A stretch of 47,053 bases of DNA from a virus. The notes beneath the pieces are model-generated. The model made no database searches and was not told the origin of the DNA. It saw only the letters and a list, made by a program, of their open reading frames with translations. Where the stretch lies: IMG/VR virus record IMGVR_UViG_3300032005_000008, positions 1 through 47,053 of that record. One strand, 5' to 3'. Of this stretch, positions 2,823-37,290 are shown piece by piece; within the stretch, counting starts at the first letter, position 1; each line of letters begins with the position of its first letter. Position numbers and translations under genes: made by a program.

Positions 2823-3914
2823 TCAAGGCTTTACCAGCCTTAGATACCCCTCCTGTAGCACCGCTGGATTCTCGCTGTAGCGAGATTGTGACAAGCCCAT
2901 ATCGAGAACACTGACGGCATTTCGTACCCTGGCCGGTGCAAGATGCGCGTACTTCTCGGTCATCTGGATTGTCGAATGTCCCAGCAAATCACGAATCTCA
3001 ATGAGCGGCACGCCGGCGGACACCAGCCATGCTGCACACGTATGACGCAAGTCATGGATCGTGAAGTCTGTTATTCCTGCCTTTATACAAGCGTTATCGA
3101 AACCCGTTGAAGGGTCGGCCACTCTTGCCCCGTTTTTCCTCGTAAATACCCATGGCGTTGTTGGGCAATATTCTGCCCGAACAGCCATCCTTCCTTTAAG
3201 TGCAGCCAAAGCCCCTTCATTAAGCGGGATACTTCTTCGCTTCGCGGCTTTGGTGTGCTCCCCGTCCAGATATATCAGCCGGTTGGCAAAATCGACCCGG
3301 CGCCATTCCAACCCCAGCATTTCCTCTTTCCGACAGCCAGTGTTCACGGCCAGCCGGATAAAGTCCTCGAGCATGTCACCGAATCGCTGCTTTCTCACAA
3401 TCCGACACAGGCCGTCGACCTCTGCCCGGGTGATCCAGCGGACCCGACCCTCTGGCTCCTTCAGCTTTCGACCCTTGACCGGGTTCGGCAGCTTCCATTC
3501 CAGTTCCGTCACGCACCAGTTGATAGCGGCGGACAGCGCCGCCAGTTCGCGGTTGATGGTGGCCGACGACTTGCCGGCCTCCGTCCTGGTCGCCGAGTAT
3601 TCCCGCACGTCCTTTCCCGAAAGCTCGTTCATCATCATCCCGGCGAAGTGCCGCTGCAGCGACTTGACCCTGAACTGAGTGGTCGCGAAGCTTTTCTGCG
3701 ATGAAGCGGCATTGCCCAGGTACTGGACCATGACTTCCTCGAACGTCCTCGGCGGATCCACGCCCAATTCCTTCTGGCGCCAGGCCGCGCCGCGATGCTC
3801 CTGCTCTATGGCCTTGGCTGCTGCGTAGTCCTCGGTGCCAGCAGAGCGTCTAACGTACGTGCCATCTGCTGCGGTGAAACTGATCCACCAAGTTTTACCT
3901 CTTTTATAGGGCAT
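2823..3914 (-). CDS. int: tyrosine recombinase / phage integrase
   Basis: The C-terminal catalytic region HDLRHTCAAWLVSAGVPLIEIRDLLGHSTIQMTEKYAHL is present. It lies adjacent to the tRNA-derived core. Confidence 0.95.
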   Translation of the reverse strand: MPYKRGKTWWISFTAADGTYVRRSAGTEDYAAAKAIEQEHRGAAWRQKELGVDPPRTFEEVMVQYLGNAASSQKSFATTQFRVKSLQRHFAGMMMNELSGKDVREYSATRTEAGKSSATINRELAALSAAINWCVTELEWKLPNPVKGRKLKEPEGRVRWITRAEVDGLCRIVRKQRFGDMLEDFIRLAVNTGCRKEEMLGLEWRRVDFANRLIYLDGEHTKAAKRRSIPLNEGALAALKGRMAVRAEYCPTTPWVFTRKNGARVADPSTGFDNACIKAGITDFTIHDLRHTCAAWLVSAGVPLIEIRDLLGHSTIQMTEKYAHLAPARVRNAVSVLDMGLSQSRYSENPAVLQEGYLRLVKP

Positions 3915-22435: not shown

Positions 22436-23031
22436 TGGCAATTCAATCGAAGCCACCCCGCGCCAAGAAGTGCCGCGTCGCTGAGTGCGGGGCCTCATTC
22501 GTCCCGGCTCAGCCATTTCAAACCTGGTGTTCGCCTGACTGTGCAGTAACGATCATCCGCCAGCGACAGGAGAAGCAGCGCAAGTCGTTCGCCCAGCGCG
22601 AGCGCCGAGACATCAAGCTCCGCAAGGAAAAGCTCAAACCCCGTGGTGACCATCTGCGCGAAGCCCAGCAGGCTTTCAACGCATACATACGAGCTCGGGA
22701 CCAGGCCGCCGGCCACCTCTGCATATCCAGCGGCAAGCCATTGGACTGGAGCGGCAACGCGGTGGATGCAGGCCACTACCGAAGCGTTGGCTCCGCGCCG
22801 CACCTCCGCTTCGACGAGCGCAACTGCCACGCCCAAAGCAAACAGGACAACCGATTCCTCTCGGGTAACGCCGTGGATTACCGGATCGGTCTGATCGCGC
22901 GCATCGGCCAGGAGGCGGTAGACGCCCTGGAATCCGACCAGGGCGTGCGCAAGTACACCATCGACGACCTGAAGGCCATCAAGGCCGAATACCGGGCCAA
23001 GACCCGCGAACTGAAGAGGGCTGCAGCATGA
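22435..23031 (+). CDS. ninG: NinG/Rap-family structure-specific endonuclease
   Basis: An N-terminal Cys cluster (C.V..CG...........WCS..C) and HYRSVG....RFDERNCHAQS..DN match the NinG pattern. Confidence 0.8.
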   Translation: MAIQSKPPRAKKCRVAECGASFVPAQPFQTWCSPDCAVTIIRQRQEKQRKSFAQRERRDIKLRKEKLKPRGDHLREAQQAFNAYIRARDQAAGHLCISSGKPLDWSGNAVDAGHYRSVGSAPHLRFDERNCHAQSKQDNRFLSGNAVDYRIGLIARIGQEAVDALESDQGVRKYTIDDLKAIKAEYRAKTRELKRAAA

Positions 23032-23723
23032 TCTACCCAAGCATACTGAACGCAGTTGTCTCGGCCCTCGCGGCTGAGGCCATCGACAACACCAGCAAGC
23101 AGGCGTGGCAGAAGCTGTACAACTCTGCCGACGAGGAGGCGAGTGGTGATATGGCAACACTGGTTCGCTCCCGCGGCGCCGACACCATCGACCGTACTCA
23201 GGTGGACTGCTGGGTGTCCGCCCGCCTGCATAGCGCCCTGGAACAGAAGCATTGGGATGCGCTGGTGGCGAAGTACAGCACCCACAAGGGGCGCAAGGTG
23301 CAAGCCATCGCGGCGTTACAGGCCCTGATCAGCACCCCGGCACCGAAGTTGTTCCTGTTCAAGGCCACCACCGCCTGGGCTATTCCGCAGCTGAAGGGGG
23401 CACGGCAGAAGGTGGTCACGTCGGTATCGGTCGAGATTCCGCTGGACGCGCCGGCGTGGCGTCGCGAGTCGATGGTGAGGGCGGCGGTGGCTGCCGGCCA
23501 GGCCAAGGCGAAGAAGGACGGGACCCGATCCGCCGACATGATCGTGCTGAAGGATAGCTTCTACGACATGAACACATGGGACAACGACGGGACCCCGGAG
23601 TCGACCCGGCGCCGGTGGAGGCAGGATATTGGCAAGGATGCTGACGCCCTGGTTAACCAAGCGCTGGCCCATGCGGAAGAGATATTGGACGCGGAGGGGT
23701 TGTTGATTGGCAGGGCTGCGTGA
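23028..23723 (+). CDS. hypothetical protein in the late-antiterminator (Q) position
   Basis: It is the last gene before a consensus -35 promoter and a short terminated leader. The assignment rests on position only. Confidence 0.4.
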   Translation: MIYPSILNAVVSALAAEAIDNTSKQAWQKLYNSADEEASGDMATLVRSRGADTIDRTQVDCWVSARLHSALEQKHWDALVAKYSTHKGRKVQAIAALQALISTPAPKLFLFKATTAWAIPQLKGARQKVVTSVSVEIPLDAPAWRRESMVRAAVAAGQAKAKKDGTRSADMIVLKDSFYDMNTWDNDGTPESTRRRWRQDIGKDADALVNQALAHAEEILDAEGLLIGRAA

Positions 23724-23731
23724 TTGCCTGT

Positions 23732-23760
23732 TGACATCAGTGAGCGAATGAGCGAAATTA
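23732..23760 (+). promoter_or_regulatory. PR'-like late promoter
   Basis: TTGACA, 17 nt, then GAAATT, located 9 nt after the Q-position gene. Confidence 0.45.
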
Positions 23761-23805
23761 TCTCCATCCTGTCATTCCTGCGTGTGTAGGACTGACTAAA
23801 AATAA

Positions 23806-23830
23806 CCCGGCCACTGCGCCGGGTTTTTTA
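23806..23830 (+). terminator. intrinsic terminator (tR'-like)
   Basis: ACCCGGC-cactgc-GCCGGGT followed by T6. Confidence 0.8.
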
Positions 23831-23897
23831 TTGGACGGCTTTCTGGGCTATCCTCTAAGCCCTGAGAGTTTTTATATGGGCTGGGGGAGCAAGCTAA

Positions 23898-24437
23898 TTG
23901 ACCAGGTACATTTTTGTTGATAGCTGCGCCTTCGATGAACTCTTCAGGCACGGTATCGAGCCAAAGGAAATTGACTCCTCAGAGTTTCAGTTCTTTGTCA
24001 CGGGTGAGGTTTTGAAAGAGCTCAGTAATATTCCTGAGCGACCAGAAGAGCCTGGTAAGAAGGCGTTTATTGATCGGATATCCAAGAGCGGAGAAATACC
24101 CGAGAGAGGTTATTTCGGTTTTGGGCCGTCATCCTATGGCTTTGGCAGGGGATTTCTGGCAGATCTTTCGCAAACGGATTATCTGGAATCTACCAAAGAC
24201 CAGCTTGGGGAACCGAGACGATCCGGGGCTCCAAAAAACTCTACCGACAGACAGCTTCTTTCGCATGCCATTGTGTTTGCAGTTCTTACCAATGAGCCAA
24301 CCCTCGGCAACAGGGTCCTAATGGATAAAGCTATCGAGCGTGGAGCAACGGTTATTCGAATGCGGGACTTCGATCCCAAGGCTGAAGGGTTCATTCAATT
24401 TTTGAGGCGGCACTTTCCCAATGAAAGTGTTGCTTGA
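23898..24437 (+). CDS. PIN-like domain protein (orphan, AT-rich moron)
   Basis: TTG is the first codon after an in-frame TAA, with GGGGGAG 8 nt upstream. Acidic and PIN-like motifs are IFVDS, GEVLKEL, TDRQLLSHAI and AVLTNE. Confidence 0.55.
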   Translation: MTRYIFVDSCAFDELFRHGIEPKEIDSSEFQFFVTGEVLKELSNIPERPEEPGKKAFIDRISKSGEIPERGYFGFGPSSYGFGRGFLADLSQTDYLESTKDQLGEPRRSGAPKNSTDRQLLSHAIVFAVLTNEPTLGNRVLMDKAIERGATVIRMRDFDPKAEGFIQFLRRHFPNESVA

Positions 24438-24440
24438 TAT

Positions 24441-24476
24441 GGCATAACCCGGCAATAGATCCGGGTTTTTTATGCC
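24441..24476 (+). terminator. intrinsic terminator
   Basis: GGCATAACCCGG-caatagat-CCGGGTTTTTTATGCC. Confidence 0.8.
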
Positions 24477-24691
24477 TCGAATTCACCTGTAGCCAGGACA
24501 GCCCTCGGGACGACCTGGACGCCGATTAGCCGGACAGTACGGCGTACGGAAATAACACCGGCAGCCCGCGCACCTTGACCTCACATGCTTTCCGGGTGGC
24601 GCGAGACTTGAGCGGCGAGATCGATGCAATAGGGCGTCGACGCTGTGATGGTCTGCGGCAGACAGCGGGAAAGACTGCGCACCTATTCAGG

Positions 24692-24720
24692 GCCTCTGCA
24701 CTCGCAGGGGCTTTTTCTTT
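24692..24720 (+). terminator. intrinsic terminator
   Basis: GCCTCTGC-actc-GCAGGGGC followed by TTTTTCTTTT. Confidence 0.7.
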
Positions 24721-24732
24721 TGGGCAATGCCC

Positions 24733-24756
24733 AGGCCGACGCAGGCCTCTTTTCTT
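24733..24756 (+). terminator. weak intrinsic terminator
   Basis: AGGCC-gacgca-GGCCT followed by CTTTTCTT. Confidence 0.4.
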
Positions 24757-24770
24757 CCACGGTACCGCCC

Positions 24771-25088
24771 ATGACTGAAGTCTCGCGTATTGCAGACAGC
24801 ACGACATTCAAGGTCGTCGTCCCGGTCCTGCAAACGATCCTGTCAGCCGGTGCCATTGGTGCCTTCGTCTACGTGGTCGGTTCGCTCGGATCACTCCAGA
24901 TGCAGCTCGCCGCCTACCAGACCAACCAGGCCCTAATCGGGCAAAGGGTGGATTCTTTGGAGCGGTCCAGGGAGTCGACGGACAAGTTGGTCGATTCCCT
25001 TCGCGTGAACACCCAGCGCCAGGAGTTCAAGATCGACCAGGTAGGGGAGAGCCTGAAGGCCCTCGTCCAAACAGGTAGACCGAAGTGA
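24771..25088 (+). CDS. membrane-anchored coiled-coil protein (i-spanin-like topology)
   Basis: Internal ATG 24771. A TM segment VVVPVLQTILSAGAIGAFVYVVG is followed by a heptad-rich region. Confidence 0.6.
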   Translation: MTEVSRIADSTTFKVVVPVLQTILSAGAIGAFVYVVGSLGSLQMQLAAYQTNQALIGQRVDSLERSRESTDKLVDSLRVNTQRQEFKIDQVGESLKALVQTGRPK

Positions 25089-25321
25089 ATCGCCTGCTGA
25101 TCGTCCTCATTCTGCTCACAGGCTGTGCGCACAAGGAAGCGATCCAGGAACCACCGAAGGTTCAACGCGTCACCGTACACCGATATGTCAGCGAACAATG
25201 CCAGCCAGGCCAAGAAGAGCGCCTACGCGAGGCCCTGAAAAGTGCCCGAGAGTGGAAGCGCTATGCCGAAAGCCTGGAAAAACTGCCAGCAGCGAAGACG
25301 ACCCATGAAATTGATCCCTGA
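25085..25321 (+). CDS. small lipoprotein (o-spanin-like topology)
   Basis: GTGA overlap with the upstream gene (GTG start at 25085). Canonical lipobox LLTGC at residues 10-14. Confidence 0.65.
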   Translation: MNRLLIVLILLTGCAHKEAIQEPPKVQRVTVHRYVSEQCQPGQEERLREALKSAREWKRYAESLEKLPAAKTTHEIDP

Positions 25322-26434: not shown

Positions 26435-27052
26435 ATGGCAACCAAGCAACCCGACTGGGAGCGCATCGAACAGCTCTTCCGGGCCGGACTGCTCTCCGTT
26501 CGCGAGATAGCGGCAGCCTGCGGCGTGTCTCACACCGCGATCAACAAAAGAGCAAAGGCTGAAGGGTGGGAGCGAGACCTCAAAGCCAAGATCAAGGCCA
26601 AGGCAGATTCACTGGTTTCCAAACGAGAGGTTTCCAGCAAGGTTTCCACGGAAGCGCTGGCAACCGAGCGTGGAATCGTAGAGGCCAATGCTGAGGTCAT
26701 TGCTGACATCCGCATGGCACATCGGACTGACATTGGCCGGTCTCGTCGCTTGGCAAACAAGCTGCTGGATGAGCTGGAGTCGCTGACCGATGAGCAGGGG
26801 ACCATCAAAGATCTGATTGCCCAGCTCAAGGAAGGCGACTCCGATGACGGCGATGCAATGTCCGACATGCTTGCCCTCGCCAACAAGATGGGCGCATTGC
26901 CTTCTCGCACCAAGACCATGAAGGAACTGGCTGAGACATTGAAGACGCTGGTCATCCTGGAGCGCCAGGCCTACGACCTTGACACCAAATCCGGCGGTAA
27001 CGATGCCGACGAGCTGTCCAAGATGATGGACGATCTATCGAAGGACGCCTGA
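26435..27052 (+). CDS. terS: terminase small subunit
   Basis: The N-terminal HTH is LSVREIAAACGVSHTAINKRAKAEGW. It lies directly upstream of the large subunit. Confidence 0.8.
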   Translation: MATKQPDWERIEQLFRAGLLSVREIAAACGVSHTAINKRAKAEGWERDLKAKIKAKADSLVSKREVSSKVSTEALATERGIVEANAEVIADIRMAHRTDIGRSRRLANKLLDELESLTDEQGTIKDLIAQLKEGDSDDGDAMSDMLALANKMGALPSRTKTMKELAETLKTLVILERQAYDLDTKSGGNDADELSKMMDDLSKDA

Positions 27053-27053
27053 C

Positions 27054-28541
27054 ATGAAGCCCGAGCACATGAAGCTGCTCCGGGATAAGCGTTGGCGTTT
27101 GAACAACCTCTACTTCATCACGGACAAAGCGGGCAAGAAGGTCCGCTTCCGGATGACGGACGAGCAGATCGAATACTTCGACGGGATGCATACCCGCAAC
27201 ATCATCCTGAAGGCTCGGCAGCTCGGCTTCACGACCGAGTGCTGCATCATCCAACTGGACGCGGCTCTATTCGAGTCGGCCAAGTGCGCCTTGATCGCTC
27301 ACACCCTGAACGACGCCAAGCGCCTGTTCCGGGAGAAGGTGAAATACGCCTACGACAACCTGCCGAAAGAGATCCGCGCCGCCAACCCGGCGAGCAACGA
27401 CGCCGCCGGCGAGCTGGTGTTCAGCAAGGGCGGTTCGATCTACGTTTCGACCTCGTTCCGGGGCGGCACGCTGCGCTATCTGCACGTCTCCGAGTTCGGG
27501 AAGATATGCGCCAAGTTTCCGCACAAGGCCCGGGAGATTGTCACCGGCGCCTTCGAGGCCGTGGCCACCGACTGCTTTGTCACGATTGAGTCCACGGCTG
27601 AGGGCCGGGCCGGCTACTTCTTCGACTACTCGCAGAGCGCAGAGAAGCAACTGCTGTCGGGTACGCCGCTCGGCAAGCTGGACTGGAAGTTCTTCTTCTT
27701 CAGCTGGTGGAAGAACAAGGCCTACTGGCTCGATCCGGCCGAGGCGATCATCCCGCAGCGCCTGACCGACTACTTCAACGAGTTGTTCGCCAAACATGGC
27801 ATCGACACGAACCCCGGTCAGCGCGCCTGGTACGCCGCCAAGGAGAAGACCCTCGGCGACGACATGAAGCGGGAATACCCGTCGATCCCGGCCGAAGCCT
27901 TCCAGCAGTCGATCGAGGGCGCCTACTACGCCCAGCAGTTCACCAAGCTGTACGCCGCTCAGCGCATCGGCACGCTGCCAGACAACAGCCACCTGCCGGT
28001 GATGACCTTCTGGGACATCGGCGTCGGCGACTCCACGGCCATCTGGTTCGTGCGTCAGGTCGGTAACGAGTACCACGTCATCGACTTCTACCAGAACAGC
28101 GGGGAAGGCCTGCGGCACTACATGAAGGTGCTCAAGGACAAGGGGTACACCTACTCCGAGCACTGGGGCCCGCACGACATCGACAACCGCGAGTTCGGCA
28201 GCGATGCCAAGACCCGCCGGGAAATGGCGCGCGAAGGCTACGAGATCGACGGCCAGCACTACCGCATGACGTTCCAAGTCGTGCCGAAGATCGGCGTCGA
28301 CGACGGCATCGATCAGGCGCGCGAGATTCTCGCTCACTGTGCCTTTGACGAGGCGAAGTGCGAAGAGGGCATCACCGCGCTGGAGAACTACCGCAAAGAG
28401 TGGGACGACAAGAAGGGCTGCTGGAAAGACCGGCCGCTGCATGACTGGGCGTCTCACCCGTCCGATGCATTCCGGTACTTCGCTGTCGCCAAGACCAAGC
28501 GCGTCACCATGACCCACATTCCTGTCACCTTCACTTTCTGA
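27054..28541 (+). CDS. terL: terminase large subunit
   Basis: 495 aa. The ATPase N-domain contains ILKARQLGFTT, and the nuclease C-domain contains FWDIGVGDSTAIWF and HWGPHD. Confidence 0.95.
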   Translation: MKPEHMKLLRDKRWRLNNLYFITDKAGKKVRFRMTDEQIEYFDGMHTRNIILKARQLGFTTECCIIQLDAALFESAKCALIAHTLNDAKRLFREKVKYAYDNLPKEIRAANPASNDAAGELVFSKGGSIYVSTSFRGGTLRYLHVSEFGKICAKFPHKAREIVTGAFEAVATDCFVTIESTAEGRAGYFFDYSQSAEKQLLSGTPLGKLDWKFFFFSWWKNKAYWLDPAEAIIPQRLTDYFNELFAKHGIDTNPGQRAWYAAKEKTLGDDMKREYPSIPAEAFQQSIEGAYYAQQFTKLYAAQRIGTLPDNSHLPVMTFWDIGVGDSTAIWFVRQVGNEYHVIDFYQNSGEGLRHYMKVLKDKGYTYSEHWGPHDIDNREFGSDAKTRREMAREGYEIDGQHYRMTFQVVPKIGVDDGIDQAREILAHCAFDEAKCEEGITALENYRKEWDDKKGCWKDRPLHDWASHPSDAFRYFAVAKTKRVTMTHIPVTFTF

Positions 28542-36662: not shown

Positions 36663-36902
36663 TTGAGCGTTCCGGACGAACCGGAGAACGATCCGCTCAC
36701 TGCGTACCTGCTCAACCTCTATCGCAACGTCTGCCGCGGCCGCCGGTACATCGCCGGCATGGCCGGGGCCTTCCCATTACCTCTGTCAGGGCGGGATATC
36801 TCCGACTGGCTGGAGGCGCATCCATCGCCATTGCCGCGCGACGAGGTTGACGAGGTGATGTTTACGCTGGATGCGCTGTGCTTGGCTTTGGATGAGGCAT
36901 AG
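36663..36902 (+). CDS. tail assembly chaperone -1 frame extension (lambda T analogue; probably made as a G-T fusion)
   Basis: The ORF is in the -1 frame relative to G, and that frame is open from at least 36600. GGGGAAAG lies at 36621-36628. Confidence 0.6.
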   Translation: MSVPDEPENDPLTAYLLNLYRNVCRGRRYIAGMAGAFPLPLSGRDISDWLEAHPSPLPRDEVDEVMFTLDALCLALDEA

Positions 36903-36903
36903 A

Positions 36904-37290
36904 ATGAATGCTCATAGCCATGGAGCGCGAAGCATGCAAAGAAACTGGGATCTGATCAGGATGATCTTGCTGGACCTGGAACAGGCCGATGGACAGCATA
37001 TAAAAGCAAAGGAAATGCCTCCGTTTCCAGCTGATTGGGTTGCCCTTCACATGAAGATGATGGAGGAAGGTGGCCTGATTGAAGGGAATGACCCTGGGTT
37101 TTTGAGTGGCCCTCCGCAATTCTTCGCGCTTGGATTGACGTGGAAGGGGCGCGAGCTCCTCGACAGCATCAGAACCGATTCGGTGTGGGGAAAGACGAAA
37201 GGGCTGCTCAAGGAAAAAGGGGTTGGCCTGACTCTTGATACCATAAAAGCGGCAGTTACTGCCGTGGTGACCCAGCTGATGAAATCCTGA
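36904..37290 (+). CDS. DUF2513-like protein (winged-helix-like)
   Basis: MQRNWDLIRMILLDLEQ matches the DUF2513 N-terminal pattern. Alternative start at 36934. AT-richer than its flanks. Confidence 0.65.
   Translation: MNAHSHGARSMQRNWDLIRMILLDLEQADGQHIKAKEMPPFPADWVALHMKMMEEGGLIEGNDPGFLSGPPQFFALGLTWKGRELLDSIRTDSVWGKTKGLLKEKGVGLTLDTIKAAVTAVVTQLMKS

What the first reader, a model, noticed from the sequence alone, without database searches (positions are those of the whole stretch)
23831..24476. AT-rich orphan PIN-like gene bracketed by two strong terminators between the late promoter and the late genes
The 179-aa ORF starts at TTG, the first codon after an in-frame TAA, with GGGGGAG 8 nt upstream. 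I count about 45% GC in its first 100 nt, against roughly 60% in neighbouring genes. It sits exactly between terminators 23806-23830 and 24441-24476, the classic moron layout. Its motifs IFVDS, GEVLKEL, TDRQLLSHAI and LTNE fall in the order of the four acidic positions of PIN nucleases. There is no adjacent antitoxin-sized ORF; the only upstream ORF is 14 codons. An unpartnered PIN-like nuclease that can only be reached by antiterminated late transcription, or by an unrecognised own promoter, is a candidate for a new host-takeover, exclusion or abortive-infection function.
Basis: partly seen in the sequence, partly recalled or inferred. Interest (0 to 1): 0.7.

Follow-up and report, generated by a model that had tools for sequence, protein, structure and literature searches.

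The report
Stand-alone PIN-like nuclease phage moron
A small AT-rich accessory gene, sitting between the late-gene switch and the late genes of a Pseudomonas prophage, encodes an unannotated PIN-type nuclease with no antidote partner; it may be a weapon against rival phages or host RNA, but this is untested.

Summary
ORF 23898-24437 (+, 179 aa, TTG start) is a real gene: dN/dS is about 0.04 against two homologues. Its GC is 48%, against 59% for the window. Strong hairpin terminators lie on both sides.

The protein has no Pfam, NCBIfam or PADLOC match. Two AlphaFold models (pLDDT 86 and 93) hit almost only PIN domains (VapC, HARP, Nmd4, SMG6). The PIN acidic tetrad is conserved across a 73-sequence family: D8 and D117 are invariant, E41 is 72/73, and D/E133 is 69/73.

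In 12 independent Pseudomonas phage or prophage loci the gene keeps the same position and strand. It lies just after a Q-position gene (three unrelated types) and before the holin or late genes, with a terminator on each side and low GC. Related phages carry other cargo in this slot. No conserved second ORF, so no protein antitoxin, lies in the cassette.

Distant relatives sit in toxin-antitoxin, restriction-modification or Abi islands.

Best reading: a mobile moron encoding a new, stand-alone PIN-like (probably RNA) nuclease. It is read through by antiterminated late transcription and possibly also by a weak promoter of its own. A role in phage competition or defence is inferred, not shown.

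The parts
23028..23723 (+). Q-position gene, a putative late antiterminator (context, not part of the cassette)
   Evidence: It follows NinB and NinG. It matches phrog_3412, function unknown. It is 89% identical to the PseuP_222 protein annotated 'transcription regulator, anti-termination'. No match to Pfam Q families or to PDB sequences. The role is inferred from position.
23731..23759 (+). Candidate late promoter: -35 TTGACA at 23731-23736, a 17-nt spacer holding a TGAGCGAA x2 tandem (23741-23756, possible Q-binding element), and a -10-like GAAATT at 23754-23759
   Evidence: Conserved in PseuP_222, phiAH14a, L001 and L028, whatever cargo follows. The strict sigma-70 scan did not call it. Inferred.
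23804..23830 (+). Terminator T1, the tR'-like terminator of the short late leader
   Evidence: 8-bp stem with 6 G-C pairs plus a T-run. dG -15.3, z -3.3. It is shared with phiAH14a and PseuP_222, and similarity to those phages ends at its T-run.
23831..23897 (+). Cassette 5' region: -10-like TATCCT at 23849-23854 (candidate own promoter) and Shine-Dalgarno GGGGGAG at 23883-23889
   Evidence: A TATNNT-like hexamer follows the upstream T-run in all aligned cassettes; some have an extended TG. No consensus sigma-70 promoter was found. Inconclusive.
23898..24437 (+). 179-aa stand-alone PIN-like nuclease gene (TTG start)
   Evidence: dN/dS 0.04. AlphaFold2 models with pLDDT 85.7 and 93.2. Foldseek top hits are PIN domains. 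D8, E41, D117 and D/E133 are conserved.
24441..24476 (+). Terminator T2, an 83%-identical direct repeat of T1 lying 642 nt downstream of it
   Evidence: family D1; dG -16.1, z -3.7. A terminator follows the gene in all 12 loci.
24487..24566 (+). Proteo-phage-1 RNA motif (Rfam RF03044), part of the late leader and not of the cassette
   Evidence: 77.4 bits against a gathering score of 42. It is also found after the gene in L004, L011, L012 and L014. It occurs without the gene in phiAH14a.
24689..24757 (+). Two further terminator-like hairpins (24689-24714 strong, 24733-24748 weak) before the first late ORF at 24771
   Evidence: One search gives dG -17.1, z -3.4 for the first and dG -9.1, z -1.7 for the second.

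Best explanation
ORF 23898-24437 is a functional gene for a divergent, stand-alone PIN-like metal-dependent nuclease, most likely an RNase.

It travels as a compact AT-rich moron cassette: a 5' region of about 65 nt with a Shine-Dalgarno sequence, the ORF, and its own terminator. The cassette occupies the variable slot between the Q-controlled late promoter with its tR'-like terminator and the first late genes of lambdoid Pseudomonas phages.

Expression (inferred):
- After induction or infection, antitermination-modified RNA polymerase starting at the late promoter reads through T1, the gene and T2, giving strong late expression.
- A weak cassette promoter between T1 and the start codon may also give low expression in the lysogen. 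T2 would then shield the downstream late genes from that transcription.

Action (inferred): the conserved D8/E41/D117/E133 site cleaves nucleic acid without any protein antitoxin.

Role (inferred from context only): it benefits the phage as a competition or defence effector, through exclusion or abortive infection against other phages, or through late destruction of host or competitor RNA.

Shown here: the gene is real, the fold is PIN-like, the acidic residues are conserved, the cassette layout holds, the position is conserved and the cassette is mobile. Inferred: nuclease activity, substrate, timing of expression and biological role.
For: - Real gene. dN/dS is 0.04 against L011 and L012, and dS is saturated against the other loci. 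There are 21 close clusters and 154 clusters at 50% identity, nearly all 170-210 aa.
- PIN-like fold. AlphaFold2 gives pLDDT 85.7 / pTM 0.83 and pLDDT 93.2 / pTM 0.88. Foldseek against PDB returns VapC, Nmd4, HARP, SMG6, AF0591 and Utp24 as top hits, probability about 1.0, target-normalised TM 0.5-0.59.
- Catalytic residues. D8 is 73/73, E41 72/73, D117 73/73, T/S131 73/73 and D/E133 69/73.
- Conserved position. In 12 distinct loci the gene lies downstream of, and on the same strand as, a Q-position gene of three unrelated types. These are relatives of the window's 231-aa Q-position protein (phrog_3412; 35-59% identical, 231 aa in L028), PF06530 and PF06323. It lies upstream of holin or late genes.
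- Cassette layout. Every locus has a terminator upstream and downstream, and gene GC of 46-51% against flanks of 55-65%.
- Variable slot. PseuP_222 has a 305-aa unknown gene there and phiAH14a a 54-aa ORF, behind the same promoter and terminator.
- No partner. No conserved second ORF lies in the cassette.
- Context of distant relatives. L016 is a toxin-antitoxin-rich array. L010 lies beside Abi_alpha/PDC-S47 and YhcG/PDC-S02. L025 lies beside an Eco47II restriction-modification pair and HEPN_Apea. L021 lies at a prophage end beside the integrase.
Against: - No sequence-profile link to any PIN family. Pfam returned nothing at E<=10. Across family members there were only single marginal hits to PIN, PIN_9 and DUF4411. 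hhalign against one VapC family gave E 0.085.
- Foldseek E-values are only about 1e-3, and query-normalised TM is about 0.45.
- No match in PADLOC.
- No consensus sigma-70 promoter lies in the cassette, so lysogenic expression is unsupported.
- No homologue was found in about 50,000 GenBank phage records by tblastn. The family is rare.
- A constitutively made solo RNase would need some unexplained control.
- The context association rests on about six distant loci and has no statistics behind it.
Confidence: 0.55

Rival explanations
1. It is purely a lytic-cycle enzyme. The gene has no promoter of its own and is made only by Q-antiterminated late transcription. It acts as a late RNase that turns over host or early phage RNA, or processes the late leader (for example around the adjacent Proteo-phage-1 RNA). 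It plays no part in lysogen immunity.
For: - The gene is on the same strand as the late operon in 12/12 loci, directly behind the late promoter and terminator.
- The scan found no sigma-70 consensus promoter.
- The lack of an antitoxin is unproblematic if the cell is already doomed.
- Proteo-phage-1 RNA follows the gene in the window and in 4 of the other 8 PIN-carrying loci scanned with Rfam.
Against: - A terminator directly after the gene in every cassette serves no purpose for a gene read only by terminator-resistant polymerase. It is the hallmark of an independently transcribed moron.
- -10-like hexamers, some with an extended TG, lie upstream in all cassettes.
- The gene is dispensable, since close phage relatives lack it.
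- Proteo-phage-1 occurs without the gene, and the gene occurs without Proteo-phage-1.
Confidence: 0.25
2. It is the toxin of a toxin-antitoxin or addiction module whose antitoxin was not recognised. The antitoxin could be an RNA (antisense or leader-derived) or a protein encoded elsewhere in the phage.
For: - Structural neighbours include VapC toxins.
- One distant relative has a 74-aa ORF 62 nt upstream (L021). Another follows a DUF4160-DUF2442 pair.
- L016 is a toxin-antitoxin-rich array.
Against: - No conserved second ORF lies in or next to the cassette in the 10 close loci examined.
- There is no tandem-repeat antitoxin RNA as in type III systems.
- The upstream neighbour differs from context to context.
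- No Rfam family falls inside the cassette.
Confidence: 0.12
3. It is a PIN-fold protein that is not a nuclease (a binding or scaffold protein), or the fold assignment is wrong.
For: - Fold matches have moderate TM (0.44-0.59) and there is no sequence-level link.
- Catalytically inactive PIN domains exist among the structural neighbours, such as Nmd4 and SMG5 (from my own knowledge).
Against: All four acidic positions and the Thr/Ser are essentially invariant across a family with only about 25% pairwise identity. That pattern is what a catalytic site would show.
Confidence: 0.08

Closest known systems
VapC toxins (PIN domain, PF01850) of type II VapBC toxin-antitoxin systems
   Same: - Predicted alpha/beta/alpha PIN fold.
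- Acidic tetrad in the same order: a 'D-S/N' after strand 1, a Glu at the start of helix 2, 'xD-xxL', and 'LT-x-D/E'.
- Small single-domain protein on mobile elements.
   Different: - No Pfam PF01850 match, and hhalign against one VapC alignment is not significant.
- About 45 residues longer, with a family-specific insert (residues about 65-112) carrying conserved FGF and G-F-G-x-G motifs.
- No upstream antitoxin gene.
HARP (minimal protein-only RNase P) and eukaryotic Nmd4/SMG6 PIN domains
   Same: They are the best Foldseek matches, of similar size (about 160-190 aa), with an insertion inside the PIN core.
   Different: - No sequence similarity.
- No tRNA genes in the window that would need processing.
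- Oligomeric state and substrate are unknown.
Morons in the Q-to-lysis slot of lambdoid phages (for example stx in Stx phages)
   Same: - An accessory gene of deviant composition lies between the late promoter with its terminator and the lysis or late genes.
- It is present or absent among related phages.
- It carries its own terminator.
- It could be transcribed by Q-modified polymerase. The stx comparison is from my own knowledge of the literature.
   Different: - The cargo is a PIN-like nuclease, not a secreted toxin.
- The host is Pseudomonas.
- A promoter of its own is not demonstrated.
Single-gene nuclease defence or abortive-infection effectors in defence islands and prophage hotspots
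   Same: - Solo nuclease gene, AT-rich and mobile.
- Distant relatives sit beside restriction-modification, Abi_alpha, HEPN and toxin-antitoxin genes.
   Different: - No PADLOC model matches.
- No phenotype is known.

Membership tests
PIN-like superfamily | Three-layer alpha/beta/alpha fold with a central parallel sheet, similar to solved PIN domains | tested here: met
   Two AlphaFold2 models (pLDDT 85.7 and 93.2). The top 20 or so Foldseek PDB hits are almost all PIN domains, probability 0.85-1.0, target-normalised TM 0.45-0.59.
PIN-like superfamily | Conserved acidic residues in the order D...E...D...D/E, plus a conserved Thr/Ser | tested here: met
   D8 73/73, E41 72/73, D117 73/73, T/S131 73/73 and D/E133 69/73 in alignment A2. 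Spatial clustering in the model could not be inspected.
PIN-like superfamily | Significant sequence-profile match to a curated PIN family | tested here: not met
   Pfam, NCBIfam: no hit for the query at E<=10. Among 73 relatives there were single marginal hits to PIN (0.018), DUF4411 (0.039) and PIN_9 (0.072). hhalign against one VapC alignment gave E 0.085, although the D117 and LTxD motifs were in register.
PIN-like superfamily | Mg2+/Mn2+-dependent nuclease activity | not testable with these tools
   Needs biochemistry.
VapBC type II toxin-antitoxin system | Adjacent, co-transcribed antitoxin gene | tested here: not met
   No ORF is conserved in position across the 10 cassettes examined, on either strand. 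The upstream element is a terminator in 12/12 loci.
VapBC type II toxin-antitoxin system | Growth arrest by the toxin, neutralised by the antitoxin | not testable with these tools
   Needs expression experiments.
Type III toxin-antitoxin system (ToxIN-like) | Tandem repeats of antitoxin RNA, then a terminator, then the toxin gene | tested here: not met
   The only tandem repeat is 2 x 8 nt inside the late-promoter spacer. The toxin fold is PIN, not ToxN/AbiQ.
Moron (phage accessory transcription unit) | Present in some closely related phages and absent in others, at the same site | tested here: met
   PseuP_222 and phiAH14a share the promoter and terminator but carry different cargo.
Moron (phage accessory transcription unit) | Nucleotide composition different from the surrounding genome | tested here: met
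   48% GC against 59% here. The range is 46-51% against 55-65% in all 12 loci.
Moron (phage accessory transcription unit) | Own terminator | tested here: met
   T2 at 24441-24476. A terminator follows the gene in 12/12 loci.
Moron (phage accessory transcription unit) | Own promoter, with expression from the repressed prophage | tested here: inconclusive
   -10-like hexamers are present in all cassettes (TATCCT here; TATGAT, TATCAT, TGATATGCT or TGGTAATAT elsewhere). There is no good -35, and the consensus scan made no call.
Known anti-phage defence systems (PADLOC-DB v2) | Match to a defence-protein HMM | tested here: not met
   No family at E<=10.

The most novel reading that the evidence does not exclude
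This is an antitoxin-free PIN toxin kept harmless by transcriptional insulation alone: two terminators, opened only by the phage's late antiterminator. It would fire only once the prophage commits to lysis, or when a superinfecting relative supplies a compatible antiterminator. It would then act as an induction-coupled or infection-coupled RNase for exclusion, abortive infection or host shut-off. That would be a new single-gene effector class with a new control logic for a PIN nuclease.
Probability: 0.18. Interest if true: 0.7.

Novelty: new variant of a known kind. Interest (0 to 1): 0.45.

Why it matters
- PIN nucleases in bacteria are mostly known as VapC toxins held in check by antitoxins. 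Here a conserved family has an intact catalytic site and never has a partner.
- It is always placed directly behind the late antitermination switch, in phages with three different genes at the Q position.
- If it is an active RNase, it would show that a toxic nuclease can be controlled by transcription architecture alone.
- It would also add a new candidate to phage-borne competition and defence genes in Pseudomonas.
- The family is invisible to Pfam, NCBIfam and PADLOC and is annotated 'hypothetical' in GenBank, so a family definition is useful in itself.
- The Q-to-late slot, with repeated terminator copies flanking unrelated cargo, looks like a defined hotspot that could be mined for more accessory genes.

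Tried and rejected
- Pfam, NCBIfam, PADLOC and PDB sequence searches of the protein gave nothing. PHROGs gave only phrog_26388, function unknown.
- A profile of the 73-member family against PDB sequences gave no significant hit.
- hhalign against a single VapC and against a 35-sequence VapC alignment was not significant.
- tblastn against GenBank phages gave no match.
- The GTDB representative-genome scan found one distant locus. Alignment A2 was too divergent for the pattern scan.
- A search for a hidden antitoxin ORF on either strand found none conserved. A same-strand +2-frame ORF at about nt 190-391 recurs, but it is broken in L001, L005 and L015.
- A type III-style repeat antitoxin was looked for and not found.
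- Rfam has no family inside the cassette. The weak anti-hemB hit at 23767-23832 is just the terminator.
- The Q-position protein has no detectable similarity to Pfam Q families, to PDB or to the PF06323 Q of L005.
- Literature searches for PIN morons, single-gene PIN defence and Proteo-phage-1 found nothing specific.
- An RNase P-like (HARP) role was considered and set aside. There are no tRNA genes in the window and no sequence match.

Full report
**1. What is in the sequence**

The ORF is at 23898..24437 on the + strand. It is 179 aa and starts at TTG. TAA lies in frame at 23895-23897, and GGGGGAG at 23883-23889 sits 8 nt upstream of the start.

GC is 45.0% in the first 100 nt and 48.1% over the ORF. 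The gene before it is 63.2% and the whole window is 59.4%. Only one other island of comparably low GC exists, at about 40-1100.

Both terminators are real hairpins:
- T1: AACCCGGCCACTGCGCCGGGTT plus a T-run, 23804-23830, dG -15.3, z -3.3.
- T2: 24446-24467, extendable to 24441-24476, dG -16.1, z -3.7.

The count of terminator-like sites in the 4-kb surroundings (5) is not above shuffles (3.4 +/- 1.6). The argument therefore rests on hairpin strength and conservation, not on counts.

T1 and T2 are an 83%-identical 30-nt direct repeat lying 642 nt apart.

The 14-codon ORF at 23876 is out of frame and overlaps the start.

**2. Surroundings**

The window is a lambdoid Pseudomonas phage or prophage:
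- integrase, 2823-3914, minus strand
- NinB, 21765
- NinG, 22279
- a 231-aa gene at the Q position, 23028-23723
- small membrane, lipoprotein and holin-like genes from 24771
- terminase small subunit at 26435 and large subunit at 27054

The 231-aa protein is 89% identical to the PseuP_222 protein annotated as an antiterminator. It has no detectable similarity to Pfam Q families or to solved structures. Its role is inferred from position.

Eight nucleotides after its stop codon lies a candidate promoter: TTGACA (23731-23736), a 17-nt spacer, then GAAATT. The spacer contains a TGAGCGAA x2 tandem.

This promoter, a leader of about 65 nt and T1 are conserved in PseuP_222, phiAH14a, L001 and L028. 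Similarity to PseuP_222 and phiAH14a stops exactly at the T-run of T1.

Downstream of T2 lie:
- an Rfam Proteo-phage-1 RNA, 24487-24566, 77 bits
- two more terminator-like hairpins at 24689 and 24733
- the first late ORF at 24771

**3. The gene is real and belongs to a family**

There are 21 clusters of close homologues at 55-93% identity, all 173-184 aa apart from one longer gene call and one fragment. An exhaustive profile search found 154 clusters at 50% identity, nearly all 170-210 aa.

dN/dS against L011 and L012 is 0.04, and dS is saturated against the other loci.

All homologues begin at the same residue. The start is TTG in four loci and ATG in the rest.

GenBank calls the members 'hypothetical protein'.

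**4. Fold and active site**

Nothing matched in Pfam, NCBIfam, PADLOC or PDB sequences. PHROGs gave only an unknown-function family.

AlphaFold2 with the 22-sequence alignment gave pLDDT 85.7 and pTM 0.83. With the 73-sequence alignment it gave pLDDT 93.2 and pTM 0.88. Both show alternating strand and helix elements.

Foldseek against PDB with both models returns PIN domains almost exclusively at the top. These include VapC (3tnd, 9h6a, 3h87), Nmd4 (8rdd), HARP RNase P (7og5, 8kda), SMG6, AF0591 and Utp24. Probabilities are about 0.85-1.0, E-values about 1e-3 to 1e-2, and target-normalised TM 0.45-0.59. The best named viral match is also a PIN protein.

Conservation across the 73-sequence family, which has about 25% pairwise identity to the query:

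| Position | Conservation |
|---|---|
| D8 | 73/73 |
| E41 | 72/73 |
| D117 | 73/73 |
| T/S131 | 73/73 |
| D/E133 | 69/73 |

This is the PIN tetrad in canonical order, with the familiar local contexts 'xxD-S/N' and 'LT-x-D/E'.

A family-specific insert at about residues 65-112 carries near-invariant F73-G74-F75 and G81-F82-G83-x-G85.

Sequence-profile links to PIN families are absent or marginal. I file the protein as PIN-like by fold and active-site pattern, not as a member of any curated PIN family.

**5. Position and mobility**

I examined twelve distinct loci with close homologues:
- the window
- L001 (with L002 and L003)
- L004
- L005
- L006 (with L007)
- L011 to L015
- L028
- L029 (with L030)

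In all twelve the gene lies on the same strand as, and a few hundred bases downstream of, the gene at the Q position.

That Q-position gene belongs to three unrelated types:
- relatives of the window protein
- PF06530
- PF06323

The gene lies upstream of the holin or late genes.

All twelve loci have a terminator 60-90 nt before the start and another within about 10-45 nt after the stop. Gene GC is 46-51% against flanks of 55-65%.

Phages with the same promoter and terminator carry other cargo in the slot:
- PseuP_222 has a 305-aa unknown gene. The terminator that follows it is 97% identical to the window's T1.
- phiAH14a has a 54-aa ORF that runs straight into Proteo-phage-1.

This is therefore a cargo hotspot with repeated terminator copies at the cassette borders.

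**6. Partner gene**

No ORF on either strand is conserved in position across the 10 cassettes examined. There is no tandem-repeat RNA and no Rfam family inside the cassette.

**7. Contexts of distant relatives**

| Locus | Neighbourhood |
|---|---|
| L016 | One-directional array with Phd-PIN, MazEF, RES, PLDc_2 and DUF2971 genes |
| L010 | Between an unknown gene and Abi_alpha/PDC-S47, beside YhcG/PDC-S02 and tRNA genes |
| L025 | Beside an Eco47II restriction-modification pair, HEPN_Apea and a recombinase |
| L021 | At a prophage end beside the integrase, with a 74-aa ORF upstream |
| L018-L020 | After a DUF4160-DUF2442 pair |
| L023 | Overlapping a downstream 307-aa gene of unknown function |

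The neighbours differ each time. The setting is repeatedly a mobile toxin-antitoxin or defence island. This is qualitative guilt by association with no statistics behind it.

**8. How it most likely works**

Shown:
- a conserved gene
- a PIN-like fold
- an intact acidic tetrad
- a composition-deviant, terminator-bounded cassette
- a fixed position behind the late switch

Inferred:
- The protein is a metal-dependent nuclease, probably acting on RNA as most PIN domains do.
- It is transcribed by antitermination-modified polymerase from the late promoter.
- It probably also has a weak promoter of its own. Two observations support this:
  - A terminator immediately after the gene has no use for terminator-resistant transcription, but it is exactly what insulates late genes from a moron promoter.
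  - Every cassette carries a -10-like hexamer after the upstream T-run: TATCCT at 23849-23854 here, and TATGAT, TATCAT, TGATATGCT or TGGTAATAT elsewhere.
- No consensus promoter was called, so this step remains open.
- The biological role (phage competition or defence, or late RNA destruction) is the least secure step.

**9. Rivals**

- A purely late lytic RNase, confidence 0.25.
- A toxin with an unrecognised antitoxin, confidence 0.12.
- A non-catalytic PIN-fold protein or a wrong fold assignment, confidence 0.08.

Evidence for and against each, and what would refute each, is given in the rival entries.

**10. Novelty and score**

PIN nucleases, morons and the slot between Q and the lysis genes are all known. 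Three things are new:
- an unannotated PIN-like family with its own insert
- consistently solo organisation
- a fixed position behind three different kinds of Q-position gene

I rate it a new variant of a known kind, with interest 0.45. It is a good, concrete candidate for experiment, but not a surprise to a specialist until a phenotype or activity is shown.

Noticed in passing
window 24487-24566 (+); also L004 6609-6687, L009 2805-2882, L011 6591-6669, L012 6592-6669, L014 6643-6722: Rfam Proteo-phage-1 RNA motif (RF03044, 64-82 bits) lies in the late leader just after the tR'-type terminator or after the PIN cassette. It occurs both with and without the PIN gene. I know of no assigned function. 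Its fixed place behind the late promoter suggests a cis role in late transcription or RNA processing.
   Followed up: partly
window 23741-23756: A tandem TGAGCGAA x2 lies inside the spacer of the candidate late promoter, between TTGACA and GAAATT. A GTGAG repeat is conserved at this place in PseuP_222, phiAH14a, L001 and L028. It is a candidate binding element for the antiterminator, by analogy with the lambda Q-binding element.
   Followed up: partly
window 23802-23831 and 24444-24473; L008 4888-4918: The terminators on either side of the cargo are direct repeats of each other (83% identity). The terminator after the unrelated 305-aa cargo of PseuP_222 is 97% identical to the window's T1. Terminator copies may act as the recombination anchors for cassette exchange in this slot.
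   Followed up: partly
L009 (phage phiAH14a) 2569-3099: The annotated minus-strand 'hypothetical protein' AH14a_p55 overlaps the plus-strand Proteo-phage-1 RNA. It also overlaps a plus-strand 54-aa ORF (2634-2798) that has a GGAGG ribosome site. The annotated gene is probably spurious.
   Followed up: no
window about 40-1100: This is the second low-GC island (47-50%) in the window. It holds three unannotated ORFs (199-483, 458-859, 856-1224) with no Pfam match, just before the cell-wall hydrolase (1089-1709) and the Rz-like gene (1706-2218). It may be another accessory region.
   Followed up: partly
window 36871-37290: A DUF2513 protein is encoded in a mildly low-GC patch (about 51%) among the tail genes. 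It may be another moron.
   Followed up: no
window 24645-25088: The mechanical ORF starts at GTG 24645, but the PHROG match (phrog_34293) starts at residue 43. The real start is therefore probably ATG 24771, after the third and fourth terminator-like hairpins. The next ORF (25085-25321) begins MNRLLIVLILLTGC, a lipoprotein signal.
   Followed up: partly
L029 6996-7226: In another phage carrying the PIN-like gene, a protein with an Acb2/Tad1 hairpin domain (an anti-defence sponge family) is encoded 1.5 kb downstream. It lies in the same region between the Q-position gene and the terminase.
   Followed up: no
all 12 homologous loci: The low GC of the gene (46-51%) persists although synonymous sites are saturated between homologues. 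It is therefore not a sign of recent import. It may be maintained, for example, by selection for binding of MvaT/MvaU-type silencers or by constant exchange.
   Followed up: no
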